Counted from the stretch's first letter, positions 6,734 to 24,171 are shown. The stretch is DNA of 36,472 bases from an uncultured Sphingomonadaceae bacterium (GCA_964483275.1 CAZACH010000001.1:1-36472); one strand, 5' to 3'. Numbers and translations are program-made. The notes: generated by a model from the letters alone, not told the origin.

Positions 6734-7900
6734 TTAATAGGATTTCGGCAACCCCAGCACCTTTTCGGCGATGAAGTTCATGATCATTTCCGGGCTGACA
6801 GGCGTAATGACCGGCAGGATCGAATCCCGGAACAGTCGTTCGACCTGATATTCCTTGGCATAGCCCATGCCGCCATGCGTCATGACCGCGCGGGTGCAGG
6901 CGTTGAAGCAGGCGCGGCCGGCGAGGAACTTGGCGGTATTGGCCTCGGCGCCGCAGGACTTGCCGGCATCATAGAGATAGGCGGCGCGCATCGCCATCCA
7001 GAAGGCGGATTCCAGCTCCATCCAGTTTTCGGCGAGCGGATGGGCGATGCCCTGGTTCTTGCCGATCGGCCGGCCGAAGACCACGCGCTCCCGCGCATAT
7101 TGCGCCGCGCGCGACAGGGCGTTCTGGCCGAAGCCGATCGCCTCCACCGCCACCAGGATGCGTTCGGGGTTGAGGCTGTGGAGGATGCACTTGAAGCCGT
7201 CCCCCTCCGCGCCGATGCGGTCTTCTTCCGGCACGAAATAATCGTCGATGAAAGTGATGTTCGAATCGACGGCGTTGCGCCCCATCTTGGGGATTTTCGT
7301 GACCTCGATCTGCGTCTTGTCGAGATCGGTGTAGAACAGCGTCATGCCGTCGGTCGGCTTCTTGCACGCCTCCTTGGGCGTCGTCCGCGTCAACAGCAGG
7401 ATCTTGTTCGCGACCTGCGCGGAGGAGGTCCATATCTTGCGCCCGGTGACGCGATAGCCGCCATCGACCTTCCTCGCGAAGGTGCTGATGCTGGTCGTGT
7501 CGAGGCCGGCGTCCGGCTCGGTGACGCCGAAACAGGCCTTGTCGGTGCCGGCGATCAGGCCGGGCAGCATGCGCTGCTTCTGCTCGGGCGTGCCATAGAC
7601 GACGACCGCATGCGGCCCGAACAGGTTGAGGTGCAGGGCGCCCGCCGCCGAATAGCCGCCGCTGCCGGAGGTGACGGTATGCATCATGATCGCCGCCTCG
7701 GTGACGCCGAGGCCCGCGCCGCCCAGCTCCTCCGGCATGGTGATGCCCAGCCAGCCGGCATCCGCCATGGCGCGGTGGAACTCGTGCGGAAAGCGCTGTT
7801 CCTCGCTCGCGGTGCTCCAATATTCATCGTCGAAGCGGGCGACGATCTTCTTCACCTCGTCGCGGATGATTTCATGATCCGCCGAAAGCTCGATTTCCAT
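6734..7900 (-). CDS. Acyl-CoA dehydrogenase family protein
   Basis: 388 aa, SD GAGGG 7 nt upstream. ACAD blocks: WLGITMPEELGGAGLG, CFGVTEPDAGLDTTSI, GRKIWTSSA, GAEGDGFKCILHSLNPERILVAVEAIG, and THGGMGYAKEYQVERLFRD. Confidence 0.9.
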   Translation of the reverse strand: MEIELSADHEIIRDEVKKIVARFDDEYWSTASEEQRFPHEFHRAMADAGWLGITMPEELGGAGLGVTEAAIMMHTVTSGSGGYSAAGALHLNLFGPHAVVVYGTPEQKQRMLPGLIAGTDKACFGVTEPDAGLDTTSISTFARKVDGGYRVTGRKIWTSSAQVANKILLLTRTTPKEACKKPTDGMTLFYTDLDKTQIEVTKIPKMGRNAVDSNITFIDDYFVPEEDRIGAEGDGFKCILHSLNPERILVAVEAIGFGQNALSRAAQYARERVVFGRPIGKNQGIAHPLAENWMELESAFWMAMRAAYLYDAGKSCGAEANTAKFLAGRACFNACTRAVMTHGGMGYAKEYQVERLFRDSILPVITPVSPEMIMNFIAEKVLGLPKSY

Positions 7901-8024: not shown

Positions 8025-10421
8025 TCAGAACCGGACGGTGCCGCGCAGGATCACCTCACGGCCCCGGTTGATGGCCGACACCGAGTCGCCGAGCACCCCT
8101 GGCGTCACCCCCGGCGCGGTGCCGGTGAACGGCCGGTCGGAGGTGCGCGTCCAGAAATAATCCTCGGTCAGGTTGCGCCCGATCAGCGCCAGCTCATAGC
8201 GATCGTCCGTCGTCCCGATGCGCACCGAGGCGTTGAACAGCGTGTAGGAGGGGCTGCGTCCGCCGGGCGAGGATGTCGCATCGGTGAGGTAGCCGTCCGA
8301 ATAGACCATGTCGCCGGTGAAGCCGATCTTGAACGCATCGGAGACGTTGGTGTCATAGCCGAAGCCCAGGCTGCCGCTCCATTCCGGCATGCGGATCAGC
8401 TCGGTGCCCGACAGGTCCTGCGCCAGGATCGTCTCGCCGGTCTGGCGGCTGATCTGGTCGACGCACGGCACGGGCGAGCCGGCATTCTGCCCGCGATAGC
8501 ATTGCCCCTGATAGTCGGTGTAGCGGCCATGGCCATAGGCCAGCGCGCCGAACAGCCTGAAGCCCGCCAGCGCGCGCGGCGCATAGTCGAAGTCGAACTC
8601 AAGCCCCTTGGTGCGCACGCCGCCGGCGTTGGTCAGGCGCTGGACGATGCCGCTGACCGTCACCTGCACCTGCAGGTCGGTGACCTTGTAGGTATAGGCG
8701 GAGAGGCCGAGGCGCAGCTGGTTTTCGAGCAGATAGGCTTTGACCCCCGCCTCCCAGCCCTTCACGAGCTGCGGATCATAGGTGAGGTTCGTCGCGAAAT
8801 CGGTGGCGCCGGAGTTGAACCCGCCCGACAGGAAGCCCTCCTTGTACGATCCATAGACGGTGAGGTCGGCGCTTGGCCGCCAGCTCAGCGTCGCCTCGGG
8901 CGACAGATTGTTGAAGCTGACCCGATCGACGGGGGTATCGACATCGACGCGGCCATTGTCCCGCCCGGCCGGCGTGGCCGTGGTCGGATCGCTTTCGAGG
9001 AAGGCGAGGCGCTTCCTCTCATGCGAGTAGCGCGCGCCGACGGACAGTTCGAGCGTGTCGGTGAAGCGTATCATGGATTGCAGGAAGACCGAATAGGCCG
9101 TGCCCTTCTGCCGCAGCAGATAGTCGTTCACCTCCAGCGGATAGATGCCGCCCATCGCCGGCGTGCCGAGGAAGGTGTGCGAACCGTTGGTGACCTTGCT
9201 GTCCTGGTAATAGCCGCCGAGCGTGAAATCGACCGGACCGCCGAAATCGGTCGCGAGCCGCAATTCCTGTGAAATCTCCCTGATGTCGAGGACATTATAG
9301 CTCGGCAGCAGGATTTCCGGCGTATATCCGGCCGAATAATTGGCGAGATTGTCGAGCGAGACGTCGTAGATGCCGGACACCGATGTCAGCAAAACTGTCG
9401 GCGTGAGCTGGTAATTCATGACCAGCGAGCCGAGGAGCTGCTTCTGGTCGAGGAACGTCGTGCCGTCGCCCCAGCGCGCGTCATACTGGTCATAGCCGGG
9501 GCCGAGGTCGGAGACGCTGACCGTGTTGTTCGCCTTGCAGTCGTCGACCCCGCCGCCCTGCGGGCTGCCGGTCGGGCAGTTGACGAACTGGACATTGGCC
9601 GTCGACGAGGCGCCCGAGCGTTCGCCGTAGGTGAGCTTAAGGGTCGCGTCGAAACCGCTCAGATCGTCATATTTCAGTGTGCCGCGCACGCCCCAATTCT
9701 CCTGCTTGGGCGCGCGCTTGCGGGCCGGCTGGAGGGCGGCGTCGGCGGGAATCTGGCTCTTCAGCCAGCCGTCCATGTCCGAATAATAGCCGGCGACGCG
9801 AAAGCCGAGACTGTCGGTGAGCGGGCCGGACAGGAAGCCGTCCACCATATATTCCCGCCCCTCGAACTCATATCCGCCCGAGAGCTTGCCCTGCAATGTA
9901 TCGGTCGGATCGGCGGTGCGGATGGTGACGACGCCGCCGGGGCTGTTCTTGCCGAAGAACAGGGCTTGCGGGCCTTTCAGAACCTCGATCTGCGCGAGGT
10001 CGAACTCGCCCATCCGGCGCACCGAGGCGCGGGCGACGGCGACGCTGTCGATGTTGAACGACACCGCCTGATCGCCGAACGGGTTGGCGTCCGAGGCGCT
10101 GATGCCGCGCAGCGAGATCGAGCCGCCCTGCACCGTGCCGCCGCCTTCGCCGAGCACCAGCGCGGGGGTGATCGTGGCCAGGCTGTCGAGATTGTCGATA
10201 CCGCGTTTTTCCAGGTTTTCGCCGGTGAACGCCGTCACCGCGACCGGCACGGAGATCAGCGTTTCATTGCGTTTGCGCGCGGTCACGATGATCGCGGAAG
10301 ATCCCTGCGGATCGGCGATGCTGGCGGCCTGCTCGGCGCCGCTCTGCGCGAAGGCGGGCGCCGCCCCGCCCAGCATGGGCAGGACGAGCATCGAGCATGA
10401 CAGAAGCTTGAATCTCGGCAT
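8025..10421 (-). CDS. TonB-dependent outer-membrane receptor
   Basis: ORF 8025..10616 trimmed to ATG 10421 (SD GGAGAG 3-4 nt upstream). Signal peptide MPRFKLLSCSMLVLPMLGGAAPAFAQ. Plug motifs IIVTARKRNETLISVPVAVTAF and VLKGPQALFFGKNSPGGVVTI. Long beta-barrel ending in the terminal aromatic ...LRGTVRF. Confidence 0.92.
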   Translation of the reverse strand: MPRFKLLSCSMLVLPMLGGAAPAFAQSGAEQAASIADPQGSSAIIVTARKRNETLISVPVAVTAFTGENLEKRGIDNLDSLATITPALVLGEGGGTVQGGSISLRGISASDANPFGDQAVSFNIDSVAVARASVRRMGEFDLAQIEVLKGPQALFFGKNSPGGVVTIRTADPTDTLQGKLSGGYEFEGREYMVDGFLSGPLTDSLGFRVAGYYSDMDGWLKSQIPADAALQPARKRAPKQENWGVRGTLKYDDLSGFDATLKLTYGERSGASSTANVQFVNCPTGSPQGGGVDDCKANNTVSVSDLGPGYDQYDARWGDGTTFLDQKQLLGSLVMNYQLTPTVLLTSVSGIYDVSLDNLANYSAGYTPEILLPSYNVLDIREISQELRLATDFGGPVDFTLGGYYQDSKVTNGSHTFLGTPAMGGIYPLEVNDYLLRQKGTAYSVFLQSMIRFTDTLELSVGARYSHERKRLAFLESDPTTATPAGRDNGRVDVDTPVDRVSFNNLSPEATLSWRPSADLTVYGSYKEGFLSGGFNSGATDFATNLTYDPQLVKGWEAGVKAYLLENQLRLGLSAYTYKVTDLQVQVTVSGIVQRLTNAGGVRTKGLEFDFDYAPRALAGFRLFGALAYGHGRYTDYQGQCYRGQNAGSPVPCVDQISRQTGETILAQDLSGTELIRMPEWSGSLGFGYDTNVSDAFKIGFTGDMVYSDGYLTDATSSPGGRSPSYTLFNASVRIGTTDDRYELALIGRNLTEDYFWTRTSDRPFTGTAPGVTPGVLGDSVSAINRGREVILRGTVRF

Positions 10422-10724
10422 ATTCTCTCCCCTCGATGTGCCGGCCCGATGTTCATCATTTTTGGAGTGGACGGCCGGTCTGGTGGCGGAAGCAAAGGTG
10501 CCTGAAGTCGCGACGGCCGGATATCGCAGCACGTCCGAAAAGGCATACCGAAACGCCGAGGGTCGGACGAAGGGTTCAAGAATGCCGACCGATCTGAATA
10601 GATAGCCGGCGATCAAAAGTTAAGATTCGGACGCGGCCGGCATTCCGGGCGAAAGGCACCCTGTGTGCCGGACGATCCCGCAGTTTGTCCGGCCCTATAT
10701 AATGAATTGTTCGAGGAGAGAGAT

Positions 10725-10778
10725 GTGAACATCGCCCGGCGACCGCGTCCATCACATCATCATGGCAAGTTGTTTTGA
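10725..10778 (+). other. Candidate 17-codon leader ORF (or ATG-TGA start-stop) overlapping the MFS start
   Basis: Strong SD GAGGAGAGAG (10713-10722). It is followed by ATG-TGA (10723-10728) and, out of frame with that, by GTG 10725 opening (M)NIARRPRPSHHHGKLF-stop. The stop (TGA 10776-10778) overlaps the TTG start (10775-10777) of the MFS gene, which has no SD of its own. Confidence 0.2.
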
Positions 10779-12052
10779 GAAACTCTTCTTCGCTCGCACT
10801 GGCGCCGGCCACCGATCGCCGGCATCCCGCCTGGCGCATGCTGATGGTCGCGTTCCTTGCGCAGAACTGCGCGATCGGCATGAATTTCGGGATTTACGGC
10901 ACGATCGTCGGGGCGCTCGAGACGAGCTACGATACCAATCGGGCGCTGGCCGCGTCCGGGTTGGCGGTCATGGCCACGGTGATGGGCGTCCTGTCTCCCC
11001 TCGTCGGCAGCCTGATCCGGCGCCATTCGATCCGCACCCTGATGCTCGTCGGCACGCTCGTGAATGCCGTCGGCTATGTATTGCTGGCGGTGGCGCCGAC
11101 GATCGAGGCGGTTCTGGCGATCTATGGGCTGATTATCGGGCCGGGCGTCTGCCTGCTCGGCGTCATCCCGGCATCGACGCTGGTCAACAACTGGTTCCTG
11201 ACCGGGCGCGGCAAGGCGCTCGGCTTCGTCAACATGCCGGTCTTCGTGTGCATCTTCCCCCTGGCGACCGCGACCCTGTTGCCGCGCTTCGGCCTGCCCG
11301 GCGTGTTCGCCATGGCCGCGATCGTCTCGCTGGCGCTCGTCCCGCTTTTGCTGACGGTGGTTTCAGCGCCCGCGGAACGGGGACTGTTGCGCTATGGCGA
11401 AGGCGCGGCCGGCGCATCGGGAGCGGACAGCGGCCATGTTGCGGAGTCCGGCCCGATCCTGTCCAGTCGCGAGATCCATGCCAGCCGTGCCTTCCAGGTC
11501 ATCTGGCTCGGCATCGGCCTGCTGACGGCGGGCGGCGTCATGATGACGACCCACATCGTGCCGCTGGCGATGGAAAAGGGCCTCGCCCTCCAGCCGGCGT
11601 CGCTGCTGCTGTCCGCCTTCGGCATCTCGGCGGCGGCCGGCGCGCTGCTGTTCGGCTGGATCGCCGACCGCATCGGCGGCCGGCGCGCCATCGTCGCGCA
11701 GGCGTTGAGCTGGACCGTGCCATGGACCGCGATGCTGCTGATCGGCCCTGCCCTGCTGCCGCTCATCGCCGTCGCGGCCTCGCTCGGCCTGATCTCCGGC
11801 GCCATCGTCGGGCTGTGCGCCGTGATCGTCAGCGCCTGGCTGGGACCGCAGAATTTCGCGCCGGCAATGGGCAGTGTCTATTTCTATAAAGTCCCGTTCC
11901 TGTTCGGGGCCAGTCCACTCGCCGGATTCCTGTTCGATCGCACCGGCAGCTATGACGCCGCCCTCATCCTTCATATCGCGACATTCCTATTCGTCGGCGC
12001 GATGTTCGCCTTCTACCGGCCAAGGGCGGCCGGAGAGTCGGCATTATCTTAA
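10775..12052 (+). CDS. MFS transporter (paralog of 25873..27087)
   Basis: 425 aa, hydrophobic throughout with about 12 predicted TM stretches. Shares blocks with the second MFS: NFGIYGTIVGALE..., LIIGPGVCLLGVIPASTLVNNWFLTGRGKALGFVNMP. The start is uncertain: TTG 10775 is the first start codon in frame, and ATG 10838 would cut into TM1. Confidence 0.85.
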   Translation: MRNSSSLALAPATDRRHPAWRMLMVAFLAQNCAIGMNFGIYGTIVGALETSYDTNRALAASGLAVMATVMGVLSPLVGSLIRRHSIRTLMLVGTLVNAVGYVLLAVAPTIEAVLAIYGLIIGPGVCLLGVIPASTLVNNWFLTGRGKALGFVNMPVFVCIFPLATATLLPRFGLPGVFAMAAIVSLALVPLLLTVVSAPAERGLLRYGEGAAGASGADSGHVAESGPILSSREIHASRAFQVIWLGIGLLTAGGVMMTTHIVPLAMEKGLALQPASLLLSAFGISAAAGALLFGWIADRIGGRRAIVAQALSWTVPWTAMLLIGPALLPLIAVAASLGLISGAIVGLCAVIVSAWLGPQNFAPAMGSVYFYKVPFLFGASPLAGFLFDRTGSYDAALILHIATFLFVGAMFAFYRPRAAGESALS

Positions 12053-12143
12053 GGACGGACGGTATGGACTTGGGTGTTTCTTGCCCCGGATCCGTCTGAT
12101 ATTTCCATAATAAACCGATTAAAGATTCAGGAGCGGGCACAAC

Positions 12144-15100
12144 ATGGCCACGGAATTCAACCAGGATCATCTTATCAGGACAGCCGAAGCCCGGCTGCGG
12201 GACCTGTCGGTTTCCGATCCCGAACTGGCGGCGATCATGCCCGACCCAAAGGTGACGGAGACGATCCAGCGGCCCGACCTGTCCTATCGCCAGATCATCG
12301 CGGCGGCGCTTGAGGGCTATGCCGACCGTGCGGCGCTGGGCTCGCGCAGCTATGTGCTGGAACAGGACGCCAGCGGCCGCACGACCCGCCGCTACACCCG
12401 AAGCTTCGACACCATCAGCTATGCCGAGCTGCGCCGCCAGGTCGAAGGCATCGCCAATCTGTGGAAGCATCATCCCGACCACCGCGCCGCGCCCGGCGAC
12501 AAGATCGCGTTCATCGCCTTCACCGGCGCCGAGATGGCGGCGGTCGACCTCGCCTGCAACTATGCCGGGACCGTGTCGGTGCCATTGCAGGCGAACCTGC
12601 CGGCGCCCGACATGCGGGAAATCCTGTCCGATGTCGCGCCGACCGTGCTTGCTGCGTCGATCGACAATCTCGAACTGGCCGCCGGCTATGCGCTCGATCA
12701 AAAGACGATCGGCAGCCTGATCGTGCTCGACGCCGACGGGCAGGTCGATGACGACCGCGAGACAGTCGCCCGCGTCCGCGCGCAACTTGCCGAGGCGGGC
12801 AGCCATGTGTCCGTGATCGATTTCGACGACGCCGTGGATTATGGCAGCCGCTATCCGTTCGAGCCGCTGCCCGAAACCGACGCCGACCATGTCTCGATGA
12901 TCATGTACACGTCGGGCAGCACGGGCAAGCCGAAGGGCGCGATCATCCATGACGCGATCAGCTCGCAATTCTGGAACGAGACGATCCCGGCGTTCCGGCC
13001 GACCGTGCAGCTCGCCTATGCGCCGATGAACCACTTCATGGGCCGCAACATGGTGCATTCGACGCTGGCGCAGGGCGGCGTCGCGCTGTTCACGCTGAAA
13101 AGCGACATGTCAACGCTGTTCGACGATTTCCGCATCGCCCGGCCGACTTCGATCCTGTTCATCCCGCGCGTCTGCGAGTTGATCTACCAGCATTACCAGT
13201 CGGAAGTGCAGCGTCGCGTCGCGGGCGGCGAGGACGAGGCCGCCGCCGACGCCGCGGTGCGCGCCGAGATGCGCGCCGGCTATCTGGGCGACCGGCTGTG
13301 CGGCGGCGGCGTCGGCTCCTCCCCCACCGCCCCCGAGGTGCGGCGCTTCATCGCCGAATGTTTCGAGATGCCGCTGATCGAAGGCTATGGCCAGACCGAG
13401 GCCGGCGCTTCGGCGATGACCTCGCAAAACCGCCTGCTCGACAAGATGGTCACCGAGTTCAAGCTGGTCGACGTGCCCGAGCTTGGCTATTTCACCACCG
13501 ACAAGCCCTATCCGCGCGGCGAGCTTTATGTGAAGACCCGCAAGCTGTTCCAGGGCTATTACAAGCGCCCCGAGGCGACCGCCGCCGTCTTTTCGGAGGA
13601 CGGCTTCCTCAAGACCGGCGACATCATGGAACAGCGCGGGCCGGATCATCTGGTGTGGGTCGACCGGCGCGGCAATGTCATCAAGCTGAGCCAGGCCGAA
13701 TTCGTCGCCGTCGGTCCGCTTGAAACGACCTATCTGGGCAACAGCTCCCTGATCGAGCAGATGTTCATCCATGGCAGTTCCTATCGGTCCTACCTCCTGT
13801 CGGTGGTCGTCCCCGACATGGATGTCGCGCGCGCGACCTTGGGCCATGAGCCGAGCGATGCGGAACTGCGCGAACTCATCCTGTCCGAATTCAAGGTCGT
13901 CGCCCGCAAGGCCGAGCTGAAGAATTTCGAGATCCCGCGCGACGTGCTGGTCGAGCATGAGCGCTTCACCTATGAAAACGGCCTGCTGTCCAGCGCCCGC
14001 AAGCCGCTGCGCCCCAATATCAAGCGCAAATATGTCGACCGCCTCGAAGCCATGTATGAGGAGATGGACAAGCAGCAGCAGGTCGAACTCGCCCGCCTGC
14101 GCGCCAATGCCGCCGGCACCACCGAAGAGCGGGTCGCCGGCGCGTTCAAGGCCAATCTCGGCCTGCCGGAGGTGCGCGCCGACAATCCGCGCAGCTATGG
14201 CGACCTCGGCGGCGATTCACTCGGCGCCGTCGGCCTCTCGCTGCTGTTCGAGGAGATGTTCGACGTCTCGATCCCGGTCAGCGCGATCCTCCACCCCGCC
14301 GCCAACGTCAAATGGCTCGCCGGCCATGTCGAGCGGGCAATGGCGGGCGAGGGCGTCCGCATGGCCGACGTCCATCCCGACAAGGACGTGCTGCGCGCAA
14401 GCGACCTCAAGCTGCACAAGCTGATCGACGAGAAGACGCTGACCGATGCGTCCGATGCCGCGCCGCCAGCCGAAAGGACCAGGAACGTTCTCGTGACCGG
14501 CGCCAACGGTTTCCTCGGCCGCTTCCTGTGCCTCGAATGGCTGGACTATTGCGCGGAGCGGGACGGCACCGTCTTCTGCCTCGCGCGCGGCAAATCGGAG
14601 GTCGAGGCGCGGCAGCGGCTGGAGGCGGCGTTCGACAGGGGCGACCCCGCCCTGCTCGCGCGTTTCCGCAAGCTCGCGGACCGGCATCTGCGGGTGGTCT
14701 GCGGCGACCTCGCGGAATCACGGCTCGGCCTCGACGAGGAAACCTACGCCATGCTGGCGCGGGACGTCGACCAGATCGTCCACCCGGCGGCGCTGGTCAA
14801 TCACCGGCTGTCCTACGAGAATCTGTTCGCGCCCAATGTGCTGGGAACGGCGGAACTCATCCGGCTGGCGCTGACCACCCGGCTCAAGCGCTTCGACTAT
14901 ATCTCGACCATCGGCGTCCCCGCGATGCTGCCGTCCCTGACCGCCGCGCCCGAATCCACCGACGTGCGCGACGTGCCCGATCCCGTCCGGCTCAGCGACG
15001 ACTATGCCAACGGCTATGGCGCGAGCAAATGGGCGGGCGAGGTCCTGTTGCGCGAGGCCAATGCGCTGTTCAAATTGCCGGTCAATGTCTTCCGCCCCAA

Positions 15101-15689
15101 CATGATCATGCCGCATCGCGACTATGCGGGGCAGTATAACGAAACCGACATGGTGACGCGCCTGCTGTTCAGCATCGTCAAGAGCGGCCTTGCGCCCCGC
15201 TCCTTCTATGCGCTGGATGCCGGGGGCAAGCGCCCGCGCGCCCATTATGACGGGCTGCCGGTGGATTTCCTCGCGGCGACGATGGTGGAGATCGGCGCCG
15301 AGCCTTATACGGGCTTCCACAGCTATAACATGGTCAACGACCATGATGACGGCTGCTCGCTCGACTCCTTCGCCGACTGGGTGGAGAGCGCCGGCTACAA
15401 GGTGGTTCGGGTCGACGACCATGGTGCCTGGCACGAGCGTTTCGAAAGCAAGCTGCGCAACCTGTCGCAGGAGGATCGCCAGCACAGCTCGATCAACATC
15501 CTGGCGCATTTCGCCCGGCCGCACGACCCCGCTGTCACCGCGCATGACAGCCGCGACTATGCGGCGCGGGTCAGGGCGCTGAAGGTGGGGCCGGCCATGC
15601 CGCACCTCGATGAAGCCTATATCCACAAATATCTGGCGGACATGCGGGCGCGCGGCCTGATCGAAATGCCGGACCTCGTGGCGGTGTGA
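12144..15689 (+). CDS. car: Carboxylic acid reductase (ATP/NADPH-dependent; adenylation, carrier and thioester-reductase domains)
   Basis: 1181 aa, SD AGGAG 10 nt upstream. A domain: YTSGSTGKPKGA (TSGSTGKPKG at 12909-12938), GYGQTEAG, KTGDIME, VDRRGNVIKLSQAEFVAV, SARKPLRPNIKRKY. Carrier domain: YGDLGGDSLGAVGLS (Ser codon 14217-14219). R domain: VLVTGANGFLGRFLCLEWL (14487-), HPAALVNH, YANGYGASKWAGEVLLREA, AHYDGLPVDF. No C, KS or AT domains. Confidence 0.9.
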   Translation: MATEFNQDHLIRTAEARLRDLSVSDPELAAIMPDPKVTETIQRPDLSYRQIIAAALEGYADRAALGSRSYVLEQDASGRTTRRYTRSFDTISYAELRRQVEGIANLWKHHPDHRAAPGDKIAFIAFTGAEMAAVDLACNYAGTVSVPLQANLPAPDMREILSDVAPTVLAASIDNLELAAGYALDQKTIGSLIVLDADGQVDDDRETVARVRAQLAEAGSHVSVIDFDDAVDYGSRYPFEPLPETDADHVSMIMYTSGSTGKPKGAIIHDAISSQFWNETIPAFRPTVQLAYAPMNHFMGRNMVHSTLAQGGVALFTLKSDMSTLFDDFRIARPTSILFIPRVCELIYQHYQSEVQRRVAGGEDEAAADAAVRAEMRAGYLGDRLCGGGVGSSPTAPEVRRFIAECFEMPLIEGYGQTEAGASAMTSQNRLLDKMVTEFKLVDVPELGYFTTDKPYPRGELYVKTRKLFQGYYKRPEATAAVFSEDGFLKTGDIMEQRGPDHLVWVDRRGNVIKLSQAEFVAVGPLETTYLGNSSLIEQMFIHGSSYRSYLLSVVVPDMDVARATLGHEPSDAELRELILSEFKVVARKAELKNFEIPRDVLVEHERFTYENGLLSSARKPLRPNIKRKYVDRLEAMYEEMDKQQQVELARLRANAAGTTEERVAGAFKANLGLPEVRADNPRSYGDLGGDSLGAVGLSLLFEEMFDVSIPVSAILHPAANVKWLAGHVERAMAGEGVRMADVHPDKDVLRASDLKLHKLIDEKTLTDASDAAPPAERTRNVLVTGANGFLGRFLCLEWLDYCAERDGTVFCLARGKSEVEARQRLEAAFDRGDPALLARFRKLADRHLRVVCGDLAESRLGLDEETYAMLARDVDQIVHPAALVNHRLSYENLFAPNVLGTAELIRLALTTRLKRFDYISTIGVPAMLPSLTAAPESTDVRDVPDPVRLSDDYANGYGASKWAGEVLLREANALFKLPVNVFRPNMIMPHRDYAGQYNETDMVTRLLFSIVKSGLAPRSFYALDAGGKRPRAHYDGLPVDFLAATMVEIGAEPYTGFHSYNMVNDHDDGCSLDSFADWVESAGYKVVRVDDHGAWHERFESKLRNLSQEDRQHSSINILAHFARPHDPAVTAHDSRDYAARVRALKVGPAMPHLDEAYIHKYLADMRARGLIEMPDLVAV

Positions 15690-15698
15690 GGAAGGGCG

Positions 15699-15722
15699 GG
15701 GGCGGCCCGACACGGCCGCCCT
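15699..15722. terminator. Short GC hairpin between convergent CAR and AraC genes (possible bidirectional terminator)
   Basis: GGGCGGCC (15700-15707) pairs with GGCCGCCC (15714-15721) around a 6-nt loop CGACAC. It fills most of the 39-bp gap between stops at 15689 (+) and 15729 (-). There is no clear U-tract, so the call is weak. Confidence 0.35.
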
Positions 15723-15728
15723 CTCCCC

Positions 15729-16781
15729 TCAATTCACCCGGATATCGTCCTGCCCGCTGCGGCGCACGAACGCCTTCGGCGCGAAGCCCCAATGGCGCTT
15801 GAACGCCCGCGCGAAGGAGCTTTCGATCTCATAACCGACCCGCTTGCCGACCTCGTGCATCGACAGCGAATGGTCGAACAGCAGCTTGGCGGCGCGCTCC
15901 ATCCGCTCGCGCGTCAGGAAGCCGATCGGCGATTCCCCGACCAGCGCCTGGAACGCCGCCGCGAAGGCGGAGCGCGACAGGCCGACATGGCAGGCCATCT
16001 TGGCGACCGACCAGTCATATTCGGGCCGTGCGCGCAATTCGCGGATGATGGTGGCGATCCGGCGCGTATTGGGGTTGCGCGCATCGCGATAATCGCTGCC
16101 CCATGTCCTGATCGTCAGATAGCGCAATGCCTGGCAAAGCTGCATGTTGGCGAAGGAGAATGCCAGCGCCGAACCGCCTATGCTTGCAAGCTCCTTGCGC
16201 AAGACGGCGGCGTCATAGGGAAATACGGGAAACGTGATTTCAGGATCGGCGCCACCGCCCGTCTGCAACGCCAGCAGCCGCGGCGCGGCACGGTTGGACC
16301 GGGCGGTCTTGCCGAGATAGGTGAGCTGGACCACGCATTGCAGGATCACCGCCTGCACCGCCTCTCCCCCCGCTGCCACAGTCTCCGCCCTCTCGTGGGC
16401 GCGCAATGGAATGACCGCCGGCGGCAGGTCGCGATGCCGGCCGCCCGTCCCGAAGCTGTGCGCATCGCCATAAAAAACGATACCGACATCGCCCTGCTTC
16501 AACCGCACGGAGCGGCGCCCGGTCTCGAATGCGAGTTCCCCCTGAAGGACGGCGTACAGCGTCGGCCTCAGGCTGGCGGCGACATGGATCTTCTGGTCCA
16601 CGGGAACCTCGATGATGCGCGCCACCCCGTTCTCGACGCGCAGGTCCTGCATCAGCAGTTCGGAAAGCGAGCCACGCGCCGGCGGCGGCGGCGTGATGCC
16701 CGGCTTGGGGTTCGCCGGCCGGGGACGCGCATTATCCCGGTGGCTCGGTGCTTCGCCCTGGTGGGTGGCGGCTGCGATCAT
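15729..16781 (-). CDS. AraC/XylS-family transcriptional regulator with an N-terminal cupin-type sensor domain
   Basis: ORF 15729..16979 trimmed to ATG 16781 (SD AAGGAAG 5 nt upstream). C-terminal double HTH: WSVAKMACHVGLSRSAFAAAFQALVGESPIGFLTRERMERAAKLL...SMHEVGKRVGYEIESSFARAFKRHWGFAPKAF. Pro-rich N-terminal 40 aa. Confidence 0.88.
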   Translation of the reverse strand: MIAAATHQGEAPSHRDNARPRPANPKPGITPPPPARGSLSELLMQDLRVENGVARIIEVPVDQKIHVAASLRPTLYAVLQGELAFETGRRSVRLKQGDVGIVFYGDAHSFGTGGRHRDLPPAVIPLRAHERAETVAAGGEAVQAVILQCVVQLTYLGKTARSNRAAPRLLALQTGGGADPEITFPVFPYDAAVLRKELASIGGSALAFSFANMQLCQALRYLTIRTWGSDYRDARNPNTRRIATIIRELRARPEYDWSVAKMACHVGLSRSAFAAAFQALVGESPIGFLTRERMERAAKLLFDHSLSMHEVGKRVGYEIESSFARAFKRHWGFAPKAFVRRSGQDDIRVN

Positions 16782-16830: not shown

Positions 16831-17613
16831 TCAGGCCTTTGTGCTGATCGGCGGACGAATGAAGACCTCGTGCAGGTTGATGTCGATCGGCTGTTCCAGA
16901 ATATAACGCACGATGTTCGCGACATGCTGCGGGTCGGCCACGGTCTTGCCGATATCGGGGCTGTCGGGCGCGATGCCAAGCCGATCGAGATTGTCGGCGA
17001 TATTGGACATGGAGCCGGCGCTGAAATCGCGCGCGAGATTGGTGGCGAAGCCGCCCAGCACCACCGTCGCGACCCGGATATCGTCGCGCTCGACTTCCTT
17101 GCGCAGGGTTTCGCCGATCATCTCGGCGGCCTTTTTGGAGATGCCATAGACGCCCGGCTCCTCGAACCGCCCCTGCACCGAGCCGATGTTGATGACATGG
17201 CCGGGCTTGCCGTGCGCCCGCATCGCCTTCACCGCCGCCTGGCTGCCCTCCAGCTGCGCCATGACGTTGATGTCGAGCATCGCCTGCCAGCGCTCGATGG
17301 TCCCTTCCATCAGCGGTTCGGGATACATCACCCCGGCATTGTTGATCACCGCGAAAAGGTGCGGATGGTCCTGCCCGATCTTCGCGATCAAATCCTGAAG
17401 CGGGCCGCGCTGCCGCAGGTCCATCGCCACGCTGACGGCCGGCGGACCGCCCGCCTCGGCGATCGACCGGGCGGTGCGGGCAAGCTCCTCATCCGATCGC
17501 CCGACCAGCCAGACATCGGCGCCGCACCTGCCGAGTTCGACCGCGATCGAACGGCCGATCCCGCTCGAAGCGCCCGTCACCACCGCCGCGCGGCCTTTGA
17601 AAAGCTCGCTCAT
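16831..17613 (-). CDS. SDR family oxidoreductase
   Basis: 260 aa, SD GGAGAGGG upstream. AAVVTGASSGIGRSIA (TGxxxGxG), NNAGV, and YGISKKA (YxxxK). Confidence 0.9.
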   Translation of the reverse strand: MSELFKGRAAVVTGASSGIGRSIAVELGRCGADVWLVGRSDEELARTARSIAEAGGPPAVSVAMDLRQRGPLQDLIAKIGQDHPHLFAVINNAGVMYPEPLMEGTIERWQAMLDINVMAQLEGSQAAVKAMRAHGKPGHVINIGSVQGRFEEPGVYGISKKAAEMIGETLRKEVERDDIRVATVVLGGFATNLARDFSAGSMSNIADNLDRLGIAPDSPDIGKTVADPQHVANIVRYILEQPIDINLHEVFIRPPISTKA

Positions 17614-17785
17614 CCGTGCATCCCTCTCCGTCGATGGAGGCTTCGCCCATCGCGCCGGCGTTCACCGGCGAGCCGTGGGCGTTCGTTCGATGCACGCATT
17701 CTGCGCGTTCGCCGGGCGGCGCGCTAGGACCGAAACTCCTGCAAACGCAACCGATCGTCCGACGCGGAAGATGCGGCGGACGGGA

Positions 17786-20845: not shown

Positions 20846-21970
20846 TCAGCCCTGCCCGTCGAGCCGATCGATCGCCGCCGCGAAACGCTCGATATGGCTG
20901 TCATTATCCCCCAGCAGACGGGCGATGACGTACAGCCTCCGATAATGGTGGCTGATGTTCAGCTCCTCCGTGACGCCGATACCGCCATGCAGCTGGATCG
21001 CCTGCGCGGTCACGAACAGCCCGCCATGGCCGGCCTGGACCTTGGCCGCCGAGACGCCCGCCTGGCGCATGAGCGGATCATCCTCCGCCATCGCGCCGAA
21101 GGCATGGAACAGGGCGGAGCGGGCCAGCTCGACCTCAATCAGCATGTCCGCCATGCGATGCTGCAGCGCCTGGAAATTGTTGAGCGTCGTGCCGAACTGC
21201 TTGCGGACCCGCAGATAATCGCGGGTCGCCCACAGCGCCGCATCCATGATGCCCAGCGCCTCGCCGCACAGCGCGACCGTGCCGTGGTCGACGGCGCGGG
21301 TGATCGCCGCCTCGGCCTGCGGCCCAAGCGCCAGCTGCTCCGCCGCGACATCCGCGAACGTCAGGTCGGCGACGCGGTGATTGTCGAGCGTGCGATAATC
21401 GCGCCGGCTCAGTCCCGCGGCCTTCGCGTCGACGAGATAGAGGCCGACCTCACCATCCGCGCGCGCCGAGACGAGGAGCTTGTCCGCCATCGCCGCGCCA
21501 TCGACCAGCGACTTCGCGCCGTTGAGTCGCAGGCCGCCATCCGCTGCCTTTGCAACTATTGCCTCGATGAACGCCGCATCGCCCCGGCCATCGGCTTCGG
21601 TCAGCGCCGGGAAGATGCGCTGCTCGCCCATCACCGCGGCGGCAAGGAGCGTCGCCGCCTGCTCGCCGCCCAGCCCGGCGAGGAGCTGGGTCGCCATGAC
21701 GTGCGCGACGAACGGCTCGATCGCCAGCGCACGGCCGAACTCCTCGGCGATCAGGGCATTTTCGATGGCCCCGCCGCCGAAGCCGCCTTCTTCCTCGGAC
21801 AGGCCGGCGCCCAGCCAGCCCAGTTCCGCGAAGGTCGGCCAATGATCGGGCTGCGCGCCGGGTGCCGAGCGGATGATGTCGAACCGCGTCTCCCATCCAT
21901 ATTCACGCTCGGTGAACCGGCGCACGCTGTCGCGCAGCGCATCTTGCTCGGACGTGTAGCTGAAATCCAC
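20846..21970 (-). CDS. Acyl-CoA dehydrogenase family protein, probable non-catalytic (beta-type) partner
   Basis: 374 aa. GTG start 6 nt after the stop of the upstream ACAD. ACAD fold blocks: FAELGWLGAGLSEEEGGFGG, RKQFGTTLNNFQALQHRMADM, LHGGIGVTEE. By eye-alignment it lacks Glu at both known catalytic-base positions. Confidence 0.85.
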   Translation of the reverse strand: MDFSYTSEQDALRDSVRRFTEREYGWETRFDIIRSAPGAQPDHWPTFAELGWLGAGLSEEEGGFGGGAIENALIAEEFGRALAIEPFVAHVMATQLLAGLGGEQAATLLAAAVMGEQRIFPALTEADGRGDAAFIEAIVAKAADGGLRLNGAKSLVDGAAMADKLLVSARADGEVGLYLVDAKAAGLSRRDYRTLDNHRVADLTFADVAAEQLALGPQAEAAITRAVDHGTVALCGEALGIMDAALWATRDYLRVRKQFGTTLNNFQALQHRMADMLIEVELARSALFHAFGAMAEDDPLMRQAGVSAAKVQAGHGGLFVTAQAIQLHGGIGVTEELNISHHYRRLYVIARLLGDNDSHIERFAAAIDRLDGQG

Positions 21971-21976
21971 GGTTGT

Positions 21977-23179: not shown

Positions 23180-23286
23180 CTGTCCTCTTTTTCCGGCTCT
23201 CTGCGGCCGCCCGGCCCTTCACCTAGTTCGCTAGCATATGGGTTTGAGCTTTACTATAGCGCCCTTGCAGACCGACAAGGAAGATC

Positions 23287-24171
23287 ATGACCCGCTTTGA
23301 CGAGACCCCGATGGGCACCACGCCCGTCAGCATCGCGACGATGCTCGAAATGGACCGGATCGCGCCGGATCGCTTCCGCAATCGGTATAACCAGCCCAAT
23401 CTCTATCGCGCCCTGTTCGGCGGCCAGATCGTCGCCCAGGCGCTGGCGGCGGCGGACGCGACGATCGGCGACGACCGGCGGGTCCACTCGCTCCACGCCT
23501 ATTTCCTGCGCGCGGGCGAGAATGAAAATCCGGTCGAGTTCGCGGTCGAGCGCGTGCGCGACGGCAACCGCTTTTCGACACGCCGCGTCATCGCCCTCCA
23601 GCACGGCAAGACGCTGCTGTCCATGGACTGCTCCTATCGCGTGCCGCTGCCCGGCTTCAGCCATCAGCGCGACACCGCGCTGCCGCTCAGCCCGGACGAC
23701 GCCATGTCCGAGGAGGCGTTCATCGCCGCCGCGCCGGAGAAGCTGCAACAATTCCTGCCGGCCTTCCTCGCCCATTATCCGATCGAGATCCGCATCCCCT
23801 CCCCCGTCGCCTATTTCGAGACGGTGCCGGAGGCGAAGCGCCATTACTGGCTGCGCGCGCCGGGCACGAGCCATGTCGAGGACCCGATGGTGCATCGCCA
23901 GATCCTCGCCTTCCTGAGCGACTTCATGTTCGTCGGCGTGCCGCTGTCCCGCCACACCATGGCCCTGCCCGGCCCGCACGTCTTCGTCGCGAGCCTCGAT
24001 CATTCGCTCTGGTTTCACCGCCCGGTGCGCTGCGACGACTGGCTGCTGTTCGAGACCGAGGGGCCGTCCGCCGAAGCCGGCGTCAACATGGCGCGCGGCC
24101 TCGTCTATGACCGCGAAGGCCGGCTGGTCGCGAGCATGGCGCAGGAGGCCTTGCAGCTTCCCGCCGACTGA
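23287..24171 (+). CDS. tesB: Acyl-CoA thioesterase II (double hot-dog)
   Basis: 294 aa. LFGGQIVAQALAAADATIGDDRRVHSLHAYFLRAGENENPVEFAVERVRDGNRFSTRRVIALQHGK matches the TesB N-terminal hot-dog wording as I remember it. Second half: ...SLDHSLWFHRPVRCDDWLLF. Divergent from the ACAD pair. Confidence 0.85.
   Translation: MTRFDETPMGTTPVSIATMLEMDRIAPDRFRNRYNQPNLYRALFGGQIVAQALAAADATIGDDRRVHSLHAYFLRAGENENPVEFAVERVRDGNRFSTRRVIALQHGKTLLSMDCSYRVPLPGFSHQRDTALPLSPDDAMSEEAFIAAAPEKLQQFLPAFLAHYPIEIRIPSPVAYFETVPEAKRHYWLRAPGTSHVEDPMVHRQILAFLSDFMFVGVPLSRHTMALPGPHVFVASLDHSLWFHRPVRCDDWLLFETEGPSAEAGVNMARGLVYDREGRLVASMAQEALQLPAD

What the first reader, a model, noticed from the sequence alone, without database searches (positions are those of the whole stretch)
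12144..15689. Actinobacterial-type carboxylic acid reductase (A-PCP-R) embedded in a Gram-negative TonB-receptor/MFS/AraC module
The 1181-aa product has an adenylation domain (TSGSTGKPKG, GYGQTEAG, VDRRGNVIKLSQAEFV, A10 Lys in SARKPLRPNIK). It also has a carrier domain (LGGDSLGAV, Ser codon 14217-14219) and a terminal thioester reductase (VTGANGFLGRFLCLEWL, HPAALVNH, YGASKWAGEVLLREA, HYDGLPVDF).

From memory these blocks are worded almost exactly as in Nocardia iowensis CAR and M. tuberculosis FadD9. No condensation, KS or AT domain is present, so this is a stand-alone CAR rather than an NRPS or PKS.

Characterised CARs come from Actinobacteria and fungi. Here the gene follows an MFS permease, diverges from a TonB-dependent receptor and converges on an AraC regulator.

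An ATP- and NADPH-consuming acid-to-aldehyde reduction is counter-intuitive inside an otherwise oxidative, beta-oxidation-like cluster. No phosphopantetheinyl transferase gene is visible in the window.
Basis: partly seen in the sequence, partly recalled or inferred. Interest (0 to 1): 0.7.

Follow-up and report, generated by a model that had tools for sequence, protein, structure and literature searches.

The report
Sphingomonad carboxylic acid reductase uptake module
This is a genuine but ordinary carboxylic acid reductase gene: it belongs to a family branch found in several sphingomonad genera, always beside the same transport and regulator genes, so it is neither a foreign insertion nor a new kind of enzyme, though no member of this branch has been tested in the lab.

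Summary
Window 12144-15689 (+) encodes an uninterrupted 1181-aa adenylation-carrier-reductase protein. It matches NCBIfam's carboxylic acid reductase (CAR) equivalog end to end (1323 bits, cutoff 1300) and the Nocardia, Segniliparus and Mycobacterium CAR structures (E about 1e-300). All five residues shown essential by mutagenesis are present. The stated neighbours are real, and no phosphopantetheinyl transferase is in the window.

The "actinobacterial gene embedded in a Gram-negative module" reading is not supported. The protein sits in a 100%-bootstrap Sphingomonadales clade (Novosphingobium, Croceicoccus, Sphingobium, Rhizorhabdus), sister to an Acidocella/Caulobacterales clade and separate from the actinobacterial branch (96%). 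GC3 and codon usage match its neighbours. The order ACAD-TBDR-MFS-CAR-AraC-SDR recurs in at least four loci, and reduced versions in others. NCBI already names these homologues "carboxylic acid reductase".

Most likely function: an AraC-controlled module that imports a carboxylic acid and reduces it, using ATP and NADPH, to an aldehyde, which the adjacent SDR probably processes further. The substrate is unknown.

Minor new points are a clade-wide Asn at the linker-loop Asp position and a candidate shared operator. Verdict: new member of a known kind, with modest interest.

The parts
12144..15689 (+). Carboxylic acid reductase (type I CAR), 1181 aa. A domain covers roughly aa 16-640, PCP aa 663-729, R domain aa 781-1172. 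An AGGAG ribosome-binding site lies at 12129-12133.
   Evidence: NF041592 scores 1323 bits over the full length. PDB 5msc, 5msp and 5mso match at E 5.5e-301 to 4.5e-286.
12399..13562 (+). Adenylation-domain core (Pfam AMP-binding, aa 86-473). Contains the A3 motif TSGSTGKPKG and the essential His297 (PxxH). Glu519 (A8) and Lys620 (A10, codon 14001-14003) lie just downstream.
   Evidence: His, Glu and Lys are invariant in 123 homologues. Their essential roles are from PMC5826065.
14130..14330 (+). Carrier (PCP) domain, aa 663-729. The phosphopantetheine attachment site is Ser692, codon 14217-14219 (LGGDSL).
14484..15659 (+). Thioester reductase domain (TIGR01746, aa 781-1172). It has Rossmann TGANGFLG and the catalytic residues Thr922, Tyr958 and Lys962. 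Asn986 (codon 15099-15101) occupies the position of the CAR linker-loop Asp (SrCAR D998).
10775..12052 (+). MFS permease, 425 aa from TTG 10775 or 404 aa from ATG 10838. Its nearest named families are monocarboxylate-type transporters (L-lactate, oxalate/formate, bile-salt MFS). It lies 91 nt upstream of the CAR on the same strand.
   Evidence: Orthologues sit in the same position in L001, L008 and L018.
8025..10421 (-). TonB-dependent outer-membrane receptor, 798 aa from ATG 10421, with an RBS and a signal peptide. It is divergent from MFS-CAR.
   Evidence: Orthologues are adjacent to the CAR in L001, L003, L004, L006, L008, L018 and L019.
6734..7900 (-). Acyl-CoA dehydrogenase family protein. 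It is 82-90% identical in orthologous loci and downstream of the TBDR on the same strand.
15729..16781 (-). AraC/XylS-type regulator, probable 350 aa from ATG 16781. HTH_18 is found here; a Cupin_6 N-terminal domain is on record for orthologues. It is convergent with the CAR and starts 49 nt after the SDR stop.
   Evidence: It is adjacent to the CAR in L001, L002, L005, L006, L011, L018 and L019.
16831..17613 (-). Classical short-chain dehydrogenase/reductase, 260 aa, probably co-transcribed with the AraC gene. It is the candidate aldehyde/alcohol oxidoreductase partner.
   Evidence: It is 62-81% identical and next to the CAR/AraC in L001, L002, L006, L008 and L018.
10499..10557 (.). Conserved non-coding block in the divergent TBDR/MFS promoter region. 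The core ACCGAAACGCC lies at 10547-10557, which reads GGCGTTTCGG on the TBDR strand about 125 nt before the TBDR ATG. It is a candidate operator.
   Evidence: The core is invariant in 4 loci, and a similar box lies about 120 nt upstream of the CAR ATG in L002, L003 and L006. No Rfam match.
15687..15731 (.). GC-rich hairpin between the convergent CAR and AraC stop codons. It is a likely bidirectional transcription stop, with no T-tract.
   Evidence: -32.2 kcal/mol, z = -3.3, and 0 of 200 shuffles fold as well.

Best explanation
The gene encodes a functional bacterial-type (type I) carboxylic acid reductase. It is the enzymatic core of a conserved sphingomonad module for taking up a carboxylic acid and reducing it.

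Proposed sequence of events:
1. An AraC/XylS-type regulator, co-transcribed with an SDR, switches on the divergent TBDR and MFS-CAR promoters, possibly through the conserved GGCGTTTCGG box. This step is inferred.
2. The TonB-dependent receptor moves an exogenous carboxylic acid, probably bulky or scarce, across the outer membrane. A monocarboxylate-type MFS permease moves it across the inner membrane. This is inferred from homology and synteny.
3. The CAR must first be converted to its holo form at Ser692 by a PPTase encoded elsewhere (inferred). It then adenylates the acid with ATP (His297, Glu519, Lys620), transfers the acyl group to the phosphopantetheine thiol, and swings it into the R domain. 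There NADPH and Thr922/Tyr958/Lys962 release the aldehyde. The sequence features are shown here; the chemistry is taken from the Nocardia, Segniliparus and Mycobacterium enzymes.
4. The adjacent SDR most likely converts the aldehyde to the alcohol, or equilibrates the two, for the surrounding oxidative and CoA-dependent enzymes. This is inferred.

The gene is native to a Sphingomonadales CAR lineage. It is not a recent import from Actinobacteria.
For: Identity as a CAR:
- Full-length match to equivalog NF041592 above its cutoff, and to TIGR01746.
- A-PCP-R architecture and no other domains.
- End-to-end matches to the CAR structures 5msc, 5msp and 5mso, with a residue-level alignment of the PCP-R half.
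- The five mutationally essential residues (PMC5826065) and the Rossmann glycines are invariant in 123 homologues, including the query.

Native lineage:
- NJ tree with 100 bootstraps: query clade 100%, sister grouping with Acidocella/Caulobacterales 99%, split from the actinobacterial groups 96%.
- GC3 is 0.857, against 0.82-0.92 for correctly framed neighbours. The RSCU distance of 0.70 lies inside the neighbours' range of 0.50-0.80.

Module:
- ACAD(-)/TBDR(-)/MFS(+)/CAR(+)/AraC(-)/SDR(-) occurs in the same order in the window, L001 and L018. L008 has the same order but no AraC match.
- L002 and L006 keep CAR-AraC-ACAD-SDR, although the ACAD in L006 is only a 47-aa remnant. L019 keeps TBDR-CAR-AraC.
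- An independent CAR lineage in Sphingobium 'Tom' replicons (45% identity) again has TBDR(-)...CAR-ADH-MFS.
- A fungal homologue sits beside SDR, MFS and an FMO-like gene.
- The MFS's best family hits are monocarboxylate transporters.
- A conserved promoter-region box is shared by the TBDR and CAR upstream regions.
Against: - There is no biochemical or genetic evidence for any member of this clade. The held literature has no proteobacterial CAR.
- The substrate is unknown, and neighbour annotations are generic, with none above an equivalog cutoff.
- The NF041592 score exceeds the cutoff by only 23 bits.
- The linker-loop Asp proposed to enforce strict two-electron reduction is Asn here.
- The conserved ACAD implies CoA- or carrier-thioester chemistry that the simple acid-to-aldehyde-to-alcohol scheme does not explain, and the core has no CoA ligase.
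- The operator evidence rests on a short motif in 7 sequences.
- No PPTase was located.
- Co-transcription of MFS and CAR is not shown. The 91-nt gap contains an AT-rich stretch that could be a separate promoter.
Confidence: 0.7

Rival explanations
1. The gene is a recent horizontal acquisition from Actinobacteria that landed by chance in a Gram-negative catabolic cluster.
For: The CAR literature treats type I CARs as actinobacterial (PMC5396282; PMC5826065). The clade is sparse within Sphingomonadales (24 clusters; few species genomes). One orthologue is on a 1.06-Mb plasmid. A different Sphingobium CAR lineage does group with the actinobacterial references (100% bootstrap).
Against: The query clade is separate from the actinobacterial groups (96%). 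It is sister to other alphaproteobacterial CARs (99%) inside a large non-actinobacterial radiation. Identity to actinobacterial CARs is only 39-48%. Composition and codon usage match the neighbours. The gene context is conserved across at least four genera.
Confidence: 0.04
2. The module is biosynthetic rather than catabolic. An NRPS-like A-PCP-R enzyme would make an aldehyde building block for a secreted metabolite such as a siderophore. The MFS would act as exporter, the TBDR as re-uptake receptor and the AraC protein as a PchR/YbtA-type regulator.
For: The combination of AraC regulator, TBDR, MFS and an NRPS-like enzyme is typical of siderophore loci (general knowledge). The TBDR's weak NCBIfam hits are to siderophore and heme receptor subfamilies. 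MxcG-type reductive release shares the PCP-R fold.
Against: The TBDR hits are far below their cutoffs and cover mainly the plug. There are no condensation, IucA/IucC, hydroxylase or other assembly genes in the conserved core. The protein matches the CAR equivalog over its whole length, including the CAR-specific A domain. The surrounding genes are ACADs, enoyl-CoA hydratases, a thioesterase and oxygenases, which is a catabolic signature. Sphingomonad TBDRs are known to import carbon substrates (cited).
Confidence: 0.07
3. Because the linker-loop Asp is replaced by Asn throughout the clade, these enzymes are not strict aldehyde producers. They would carry the reduction on to the alcohol (four electrons), acting as carboxylate-to-alcohol reductases.
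For: Asn986 replaces the Asp in all 24 clade members. That Asp was proposed to switch off the R domain after the first hydride transfer (PMC8024701 citing Gahloth 2017). From memory, and not checked because the paper is not held, a D998G variant of SrCAR reduced aldehydes.
Against: Asp-bearing CARs (MmCAR) and the fungal NcCAR already reduce aldehydes appreciably in vitro (PMC10168641). NRPS R domains with Gly at this position include aldehyde producers. Tsukamurella tyrosinosolvens 'car' has Asn and Streptomyces sp. Mut1 'car' has Gly, so the position varies within accepted CARs. Asp to Asn is conservative. A dedicated SDR or ADH is conserved next to the gene, which argues that aldehyde is released.
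Confidence: 0.1
4. The protein works only as an acyl-AMP or acyl-CoA ligase (the 'FadD9' label), with a vestigial reductase domain.
For: JGI and some GenBank records label homologues 'fatty acid CoA ligase FadD9' or 'putative fatty-acid-CoA ligase FadD'.
Against: The PCP Ser, the Rossmann motif, Thr/Tyr/Lys and the NADPH-contact regions are intact and invariant. The R half aligns with the SrCAR R domain along its whole length at E 1.8e-151. Such conservation is not expected for a vestigial domain.
Confidence: 0.03

Closest known systems
Type I (bacterial) carboxylic acid reductases, EC 1.2.1.30: Nocardia iowensis CAR (PDB 5msc/5msd), Segniliparus rugosus CAR (5msp and related entries), Mycobacterium marinum CAR (5mso), M. 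tuberculosis FadD9
   Same: Same length (about 1170-1190 aa) and same A-PCP-R order, alignable end to end. The same essential His, Glu, Ser, Tyr and Lys residues and Rossmann motif are present. Like them it is stand-alone, with no adjacent PPTase. It is expected to use the same ATP/NADPH, phosphopantetheine-swinging mechanism.
   Different: Identity to actinobacterial CARs is only about 39-48%, and the host is alphaproteobacterial. It belongs to a separate, well-supported clade. Asn replaces the linker-loop Asp, and Pro replaces Ala three to four residues later. It is embedded in a conserved TBDR/MFS/AraC/SDR/ACAD module that actinobacterial loci lack. It is uncharacterised biochemically.
Sphingomonadales proteins already named 'carboxylic acid reductase' by NCBI (Sphingobium sp. 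SJ10-10 plasmid, Sphingobium sp., Rhizorhabdus argentea, Novosphingobium MAG; also Novosphingobium marinum and Croceicoccus mobilis loci)
   Same: They are 68-77% identical over the full length, fall in the same clade, carry the same Asn, and have the same or a reduced gene neighbourhood.
   Different: The window's protein is a distinct species-level variant. Its best named relatives are about 76-77% identical, and its best metagenomic relative is 82%. Some relatives lack the MFS or ACAD, or have the TBDR on the same strand as the CAR.
Terminal reductase (R) domains of NRPS/PKS: MxaA (4u7w), M. tuberculosis Nrp R domain (4dqv), myxochelin MxcG
   Same: Same extended-SDR thioester-reductase fold family and the same Tyr/Lys chemistry acting on a phosphopantetheine thioester.
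   Different: Those R domains end multi-module assembly lines and carry Gly at the linker-loop position (PMC8024701). Here there is no condensation or KS/AT domain, and the A domain is of the CAR type.
Fungal CARs (types II-IV, e.g. Neurospora crassa NcCAR) and fungal alpha-aminoadipate reductase Lys2
   Same: A-T-R organisation and overall chemistry. TIGR03443 gives a partial hit.
   Different: Type I and fungal CARs share only about 20% identity (PMC5826065). The catalytic triad has Ser rather than Thr, and there is no A10 Lys. The query is clearly of the bacterial type.

Membership tests
Type I carboxylic acid reductase (NCBIfam NF041592, EC 1.2.1.30) | Full-length match to the curated equivalog model above its trusted cutoff | tested here: met
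   1323.3 bits against a cutoff of 1300, over model positions 2-1160 of 1160. The margin is small.
Type I carboxylic acid reductase (NCBIfam NF041592, EC 1.2.1.30) | Single polypeptide with adenylation, carrier and thioester-reductase domains in that order and no condensation, KS or AT domain | tested here: met
   Pfam AMP-binding 86-473, PP-binding 663-729, NAD_binding_4 784-1047, and nothing else. TIGR01746 covers 781-1172.
Type I carboxylic acid reductase (NCBIfam NF041592, EC 1.2.1.30) | Residues shown essential by mutagenesis: A-domain His (PxxH) and Glu (A8), carrier Ser, R-domain Tyr and Lys | tested here: met
   His297, Glu519, Ser692, Tyr958 and Lys962 are present and invariant in 123 homologues. 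The residue list is from PMC5826065.
Type I carboxylic acid reductase (NCBIfam NF041592, EC 1.2.1.30) | Bacterial-type hallmarks: A10 Lys, catalytic-triad Thr, TGxxGxxG Rossmann motif | tested here: met
   Lys620, Thr922 and T785-G786-G789-G792 are present. Their status as bacterial hallmarks is from PMC5826065.
Type I carboxylic acid reductase (NCBIfam NF041592, EC 1.2.1.30) | Linker-loop Asp (SrCAR D998) proposed to restrict the reaction to a two-electron reduction | tested here: not met
   Asn986 is found in the query and in all 24 clade members. The position also varies in annotated actinobacterial CARs, with Tsukamurella Asn and Streptomyces Gly, so it is not a strict family-defining feature. 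Its proposed role is described in PMC8024701. The residue number comes from my own count in the alignment and from memory of Gahloth 2017.
Type I carboxylic acid reductase (NCBIfam NF041592, EC 1.2.1.30) | ATP- and NADPH-dependent reduction of free carboxylic acids to aldehydes by the holo-enzyme | not testable with these tools
   Needs enzyme assays. No member of this clade is characterised in the held literature.
Type I carboxylic acid reductase (NCBIfam NF041592, EC 1.2.1.30) | Post-translational phosphopantetheinylation by an Sfp-type PPTase | not testable with these tools
   The acceptor Ser is present. No PPTase domain is in the 36-kb window, and the rest of the genome is not available.
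Conserved sphingomonad CAR module (defined here) | CAR flanked by a TonB-dependent receptor and an AraC/Cupin_6 regulator, usually with an SDR, an MFS and an ACAD | tested here: met
   The window shares the full gene order with L001 and L018. L008 has the same order but no AraC match. Reduced versions occur in L002, L003, L006 and L019.
NRPS/PKS assembly line or siderophore synthetase | Condensation, KS/AT or NIS-synthetase domains in the protein or in conserved neighbours | tested here: not met
   None in the protein. None in the window ORFs or the conserved neighbours.

The most novel reading that the evidence does not exclude
The conserved TBDR-MFS-CAR-SDR(-ACAD) module could be an obligatory reductive entry step of a catabolic pathway. 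A carboxylic acid that cannot enter beta-oxidation (for example a branched, alicyclic or terpenoid/steroid-like acid) would be imported and reduced to the aldehyde, so that downstream oxygenases or dehydrogenases can attack it. BVMO-type genes sit nearby in the Sphingobium 'Tom' and fungal loci. Possibly the 90%-conserved ACAD acts on the PCP-tethered acyl intermediate. This would give the first defined physiological role for a bacterial CAR and the first characterised Gram-negative CAR, and the clade-wide Asn986 might tune the aldehyde/alcohol outcome.
Probability: 0.12. Interest if true: 0.6.

Novelty: new member of a known kind. Interest (0 to 1): 0.3.

Why it matters
CARs are valued biocatalysts, yet every characterised bacterial example in the literature held here is actinobacterial, and their natural substrates and roles are essentially unknown.

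This locus shows that a sizeable, uncharacterised proteobacterial branch exists. In sphingomonads the CAR is locked into a conserved, regulator-controlled uptake module. That gives a practical handle for finding a native CAR substrate: inducer screening through the AraC regulator, and TBDR or MFS knockouts. It also offers a source of Gram-negative-native CARs that may express better in proteobacterial hosts.

The significance is incremental. The enzyme class, mechanism and annotation are already established.

Tried and rejected
1. Asn986 as a mechanistic anomaly. I followed it through the alignment of 121-123 homologues and the literature. I downgraded it for three reasons: Tsukamurella and Streptomyces 'car' genes also lack the Asp, NRPS aldehyde-forming R domains have Gly, and Asp-bearing CARs over-reduce in vitro. 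I could not read Gahloth 2017 (not held). A search on D998 returned only irrelevant papers.
2. A8 'SQAEFV', with Ala in place of the signature Gly. Ala is common across the family, including the actinobacterial branch, so it is not notable.
3. A second copy of the promoter box upstream of the SDR (window 17729-17739, and in L006). It shares no extended similarity, and 19 of 100 shuffles give at least 2 hits. I treat it as chance.
4. A known RNA element in the MFS/CAR leader regions. Rfam gave no match at E <= 1.
5. An intrinsic terminator between MFS and CAR. The terminator-like count equals the shuffle expectation.
6. Specific naming of neighbours through NCBIfam. Only generic hits came back, all below cutoffs.
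7. A link to the sphingomonad bile-salt degradation clusters. The Chol11 proteome paper mentions no CAR-like gene.
8. Naming the unlabelled metagenomic clades with the listing of cluster members. No names were returned.
9. The mycobacterial AcasR-FadD9 paper as a source on physiological role. It contains nothing on mechanism.
10. A PPTase in the window. None was found.
11. Structure prediction and the representative-library search were not run, because end-to-end matches to solved CAR structures made them unnecessary.

Full report
**1. The observation**

Window 12144-15689 (+) is an uninterrupted ORF of 1181 codons. Ser692 of LGGDSL is encoded at 14217-14219, exactly as stated.

Pfam finds AMP-binding (residues 86-473), PP-binding (663-729) and NAD_binding_4 (784-1047). 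The only other hit is an overlapping Epimerase match, so there is no condensation, KS or AT domain. NCBIfam's equivalog model for carboxylic acid reductase, NF041592, aligns over positions 2-1160 of 1160 at 1323.3 bits against a cutoff of 1300. The thioester-reductase model TIGR01746 scores 253 bits against 213.

The full-length sequences behind the CAR crystal structures all match end to end: Nocardia iowensis (5msc), Segniliparus rugosus (5msp) and Mycobacterium marinum (5mso), at E 5.5e-301 to 4.5e-286.

**2. Functional integrity**

Stolterfoht et al. showed that a CAR loses all activity when the A-domain His of PxxH, the A8 Glu, the carrier Ser, or the R-domain Tyr or Lys is replaced (PMC5826065). 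The query has His297, Glu519, Ser692, Tyr958 and Lys962. In my alignment of 123 homologues these five positions are invariant. So are the A10 Lys620, the A5 Glu, the A7 Asp and the three Rossmann glycines. The A5 Thr and the Thr of TGxxGxxG each differ in a single sequence.

There is one deviation. The residue aligned with SrCAR position 998, the Asp of VFRSDMIL by my count in the alignment, is Asn986 (VFRPNMIM). That aspartate lies in the linker loop and was proposed to inactivate the R domain after the first hydride transfer, which would ensure a strict two-electron reduction (PMC8024701 summarising Gahloth 2017).

Asn is found in all 24 members of the query's clade, whereas most other homologues have Asp. 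I do not regard this as disqualifying, or even very informative, for these reasons:
- An annotated Tsukamurella 'car' also has Asn, and a Streptomyces 'car' has Gly.
- Purified Asp-bearing MmCAR and the fungal NcCAR reduce aldehydes appreciably anyway (PMC10168641).

It is a clade marker worth one mutagenesis experiment.

**3. The surroundings**

GC3 separates the real genes (about 0.82-0.92) from the shadow ORFs. Around the CAR lie, in order:
- an acyl-CoA dehydrogenase (6734-7900, -);
- a TonB-dependent receptor (8025-10421, -), whose start has an RBS and a signal peptide;
- an MFS permease (10775/10838-12052, +), whose nearest named families are lactate, oxalate/formate and bile-salt monocarboxylate carriers;
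- the CAR itself, with an AGGAG ribosome-binding site;
- a strong hairpin at 15687-15731 (-32.2 kcal/mol, z = -3.3);
- a convergent AraC-type regulator (15729-16781, -), which starts 49 nt after the stop of an SDR (16831-17613, -), suggesting an SDR-AraC operon.

Further out are a GMC oxidoreductase, a cupin, a pimC/pimD-like ACAD pair, a thioesterase II, a SnoaL-like protein, enoyl-CoA hydratases, a second MFS, MarR regulators, a Rieske oxygenase alpha subunit, APH-family kinases, a P450, a TetR regulator, a nitronate monooxygenase-like protein and the start of another TBDR. No ORF carries a phosphopantetheinyl transferase domain.

**4. Origin**

The large protein collection holds 3479 proteins with E <= 1e-50 among the 8000 candidates that were scored. 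An identical protein occurs on an ENA metagenome contig.

The closest named relatives are already called 'carboxylic acid reductase' by NCBI: Sphingobium sp. SJ10-10 (on a 1.06-Mb plasmid, 70%), Sphingobium sp. (69%), a Novosphingobium MAG (69%), Rhizorhabdus argentea (69%), a Caulobacterales MAG (62%) and Acidocella (61-62%). Croceicoccus mobilis (76%) is labelled otherwise. The first named actinobacterial hit (Aldersonia) is at 48%, and plasmid-borne actinobacterial CARs are at 39-43%.

I built a neighbour-joining tree of 123 sequences over 1178 columns with 100 bootstraps:
- the query clade (query plus the full-length members of P0001-P0024) has 100% support;
- the Acidocella/Caulobacterales clade has 99%, and the sister grouping of the two clades has 99%;
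- the split between these plus many unnamed environmental clades and the actinobacterial groups has 96%.

The CAR's GC (0.654), GC3 (0.857) and RSCU distance to the pooled neighbours (0.70, against a range of 0.50-0.80 for correctly framed genes) are unremarkable. So there is no evidence for a recent actinobacterial import. The gene belongs to an alphaproteobacterial CAR lineage that the biocatalysis literature has not sampled. [quoted passage not shown]

**5. Conserved context**

A scan of one genome per GTDB species returned 11 full-length or partial alphaproteobacterial and other Pseudomonadota loci. Running the window's proteins against them by tblastn, together with gene tables for two further contigs, gives the following:
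- ACAD(-), TBDR(-), MFS(+), CAR(+), AraC(-), SDR(-) occur in identical order in Novosphingobium marinum (L001) and a 52-kb metagenomic contig (L018). Croceicoccus mobilis (L008) has the same order, but no AraC match was detected. In L001 and L008 the identities are ACAD 90%, TBDR 73-74%, MFS 58-73%, CAR 76-77% and SDR about 80%.
- Sphingobium lactosutens (L002) and a Sphingobium MAG (L006) keep CAR-AraC-ACAD-SDR. The ACAD in L006 is only a 47-aa remnant.
- L003 and L006 have the TBDR divergent from the CAR, with no MFS between them.
- Rhizorhabdus argentea (L019) has SDR...TBDR(+)-CAR(+)-AraC(-).
- The two Acidocella loci keep only the AraC neighbour.
- L018 also repeats the window's accessory set: APH, P450, Rieske, SnoaL_4 and TetR.

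A second, independent Sphingobium CAR lineage (45% identity) groups with the actinobacterial references. It sits on about 1-Mb replicons of nine 'Tom' strains, next to a TBDR homologue (-), an alcohol dehydrogenase (+) and a homologous MFS (+), with a cyclohexanone monooxygenase nearby.

The caveat is that the clade is sparse and one copy is plasmid-borne, so lateral spread within the order is likely.

**6. A candidate operator**

Aligning the divergent TBDR/MFS intergenic regions of the window, L001, L008 and L018 shows a conserved block in otherwise diverged DNA. Its invariant core is ACCGAAACGCC, at window 10547-10557.

Read on the TBDR strand, the core is GGCGTTTCGG, about 125 nt upstream of the TBDR ATG. 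In the loci without an MFS gene (L002, L003, L006), a similar box, GG[CA]GTT[TCA]C[GA]GCAT, lies about 120 nt upstream of the CAR ATG on the CAR strand. This fits one regulator, presumably the adjacent AraC protein, controlling both receptor and reductase.

The evidence is thin: a short motif in seven sequences. A one-mismatch copy upstream of the SDR is at chance level. No Rfam family matches the region.

**7. Mechanism**

Shown here: the sequence features of a complete, intact CAR, its lineage, and its conserved partners.

Taken from the characterised family: ATP-dependent adenylation, thioesterification to the Ser692-linked phosphopantetheine, and NADPH-dependent reductive release of the aldehyde.

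Inferred:
- The TBDR and the monocarboxylate-type MFS deliver the acid.
- The AraC protein senses it or its product.
- The neighbouring SDR (an ADH in the 'Tom' lineage, an SDR in the fungal locus) handles the aldehyde.
- A PPTase encoded elsewhere activates the enzyme. This is also the case for Nocardia CAR, from my own knowledge.

The substrate cannot be named. The accessory genes suggest an aliphatic, alicyclic or terpenoid/steroid-like acid rather than a simple aromatic one. They include paired pimCD-like ACADs, hydratases, a thioesterase, P450 and Rieske oxygenases and a SnoaL-like protein, with no ring-cleavage pathway. This is a weak inference. The Chol11 bile-salt study shows no CAR-like component.

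The apparent paradox of a reductive step in an oxidative cluster is best read as a way of converting an unreactive carboxylate into a reactive carbonyl. It is not evidence of misplacement.

**8. Comparison and novelty**

The protein passes every testable membership criterion for type I CARs except the linker-loop Asp, which is not universal in the family. It is a new member of a known kind.

What is modestly new:
- a documented, well-supported sphingomonad/alphaproteobacterial CAR clade with a conserved uptake-and-regulation module;
- the clade-wide Asn;
- the candidate operator.

The held literature describes no proteobacterial CAR, so experimental characterisation would fill a gap. But public annotation already names these genes correctly.

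I score interest at 0.3. The most novel reading not excluded is an obligatory reductive entry route that defines a physiological CAR role, possibly with the ACAD acting on the tethered intermediate. I give that about 0.12 probability.

Noticed in passing
P0082 / L020 8001-11546 (Phialemonium atrogriseum scaffold MU839033.1); also P0108 (Sporothrix bragantina): Bacterial-type (type I) CARs about 50% identical to the query occur in Sordariomycete fungi. They form a 100%-bootstrap clade with metagenomic sequences inside the non-actinobacterial radiation. The Phialemonium gene is intronless (3546 nt for 1181 aa) on a 264-kb scaffold among fungal genes whose spans imply introns (for example 2282 nt for 568 aa), next to an SDR, an FMO-like gene and an MFS. 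This suggests bacterium-to-fungus transfer of a CAR module.
   Followed up: partly
L013 (Sphingobium sp. TomMM7A plasmid AP027312.1, CAR at 8926-12468) and eight sister replicons: A second, independent CAR lineage in Sphingobium is 45% identical to the query and groups with the actinobacterial reference CARs (100% bootstrap). It is annotated only as 'oxidoreductase' or 'putative fatty-acid-CoA ligase FadD'. It is flanked by a TBDR homologue, an alcohol dehydrogenase, an MFS and a nitronate monooxygenase, with a cyclohexanone monooxygenase nearby. This lineage, not the query's, is the better candidate for an actinobacterial origin.
   Followed up: partly
window 10499-10557: A conserved non-coding block (core ACCGAAACGCC, or GGCGTTTCGG on the TBDR strand) lies in the divergent TBDR/MFS promoter region. 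A related box sits about 120 nt upstream of the CAR in loci lacking the MFS. It is a candidate AraC operator.
   Followed up: partly
window 1904-3474, and L002 1-1471: An APH-family phosphotransferase (351 aa) is followed, with a 4-nt overlap, by a 172-aa protein with no Pfam hit. The pair is conserved (47% and 35% identity) near the CAR in Sphingobium lactosutens. A second APH-family gene (29385-30785) and several ACADs are also in the window. APH plus ACAD pairs recall the phosphorylation-elimination chemistry of 4-hydroxyacyl-CoA catabolism (LvaA/LvaC, ACAD10/11). That resemblance is from memory and was not tested.
   Followed up: no
window 20846-24171, and L009 3294-6540: The pimD/pimC-like ACAD pair and the acyl-CoA thioesterase II of the window have orthologues (61%, 78% and 58% identity), in the same order, immediately upstream of the CAR in a Pseudomonadota MAG. 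So these genes are linked to CARs in a more distant lineage as well.
   Followed up: no
window 6734-7900: The ACAD next to the TBDR is 90% identical between the window, Novosphingobium marinum and Croceicoccus mobilis, which is much more conserved than the CAR (77%) or the TBDR (73%). Its sub-threshold NCBIfam hits include carrier-protein-dependent dehydrogenases (prolyl-PCP dehydrogenase, PigA, MbtN) as well as acyl-CoA dehydrogenases.
   Followed up: no
L008 (Croceicoccus mobilis LYWZ01000017.1) 10001-13120: The Croceicoccus orthologue is recorded as a 1073-aa 'SDR family oxidoreductase / fatty-acid-CoA ligase FadD', and matches only query residues 1-1040. No AraC match was found between it and the SDR. 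It may be C-terminally truncated or mis-assembled or mis-called.
   Followed up: no
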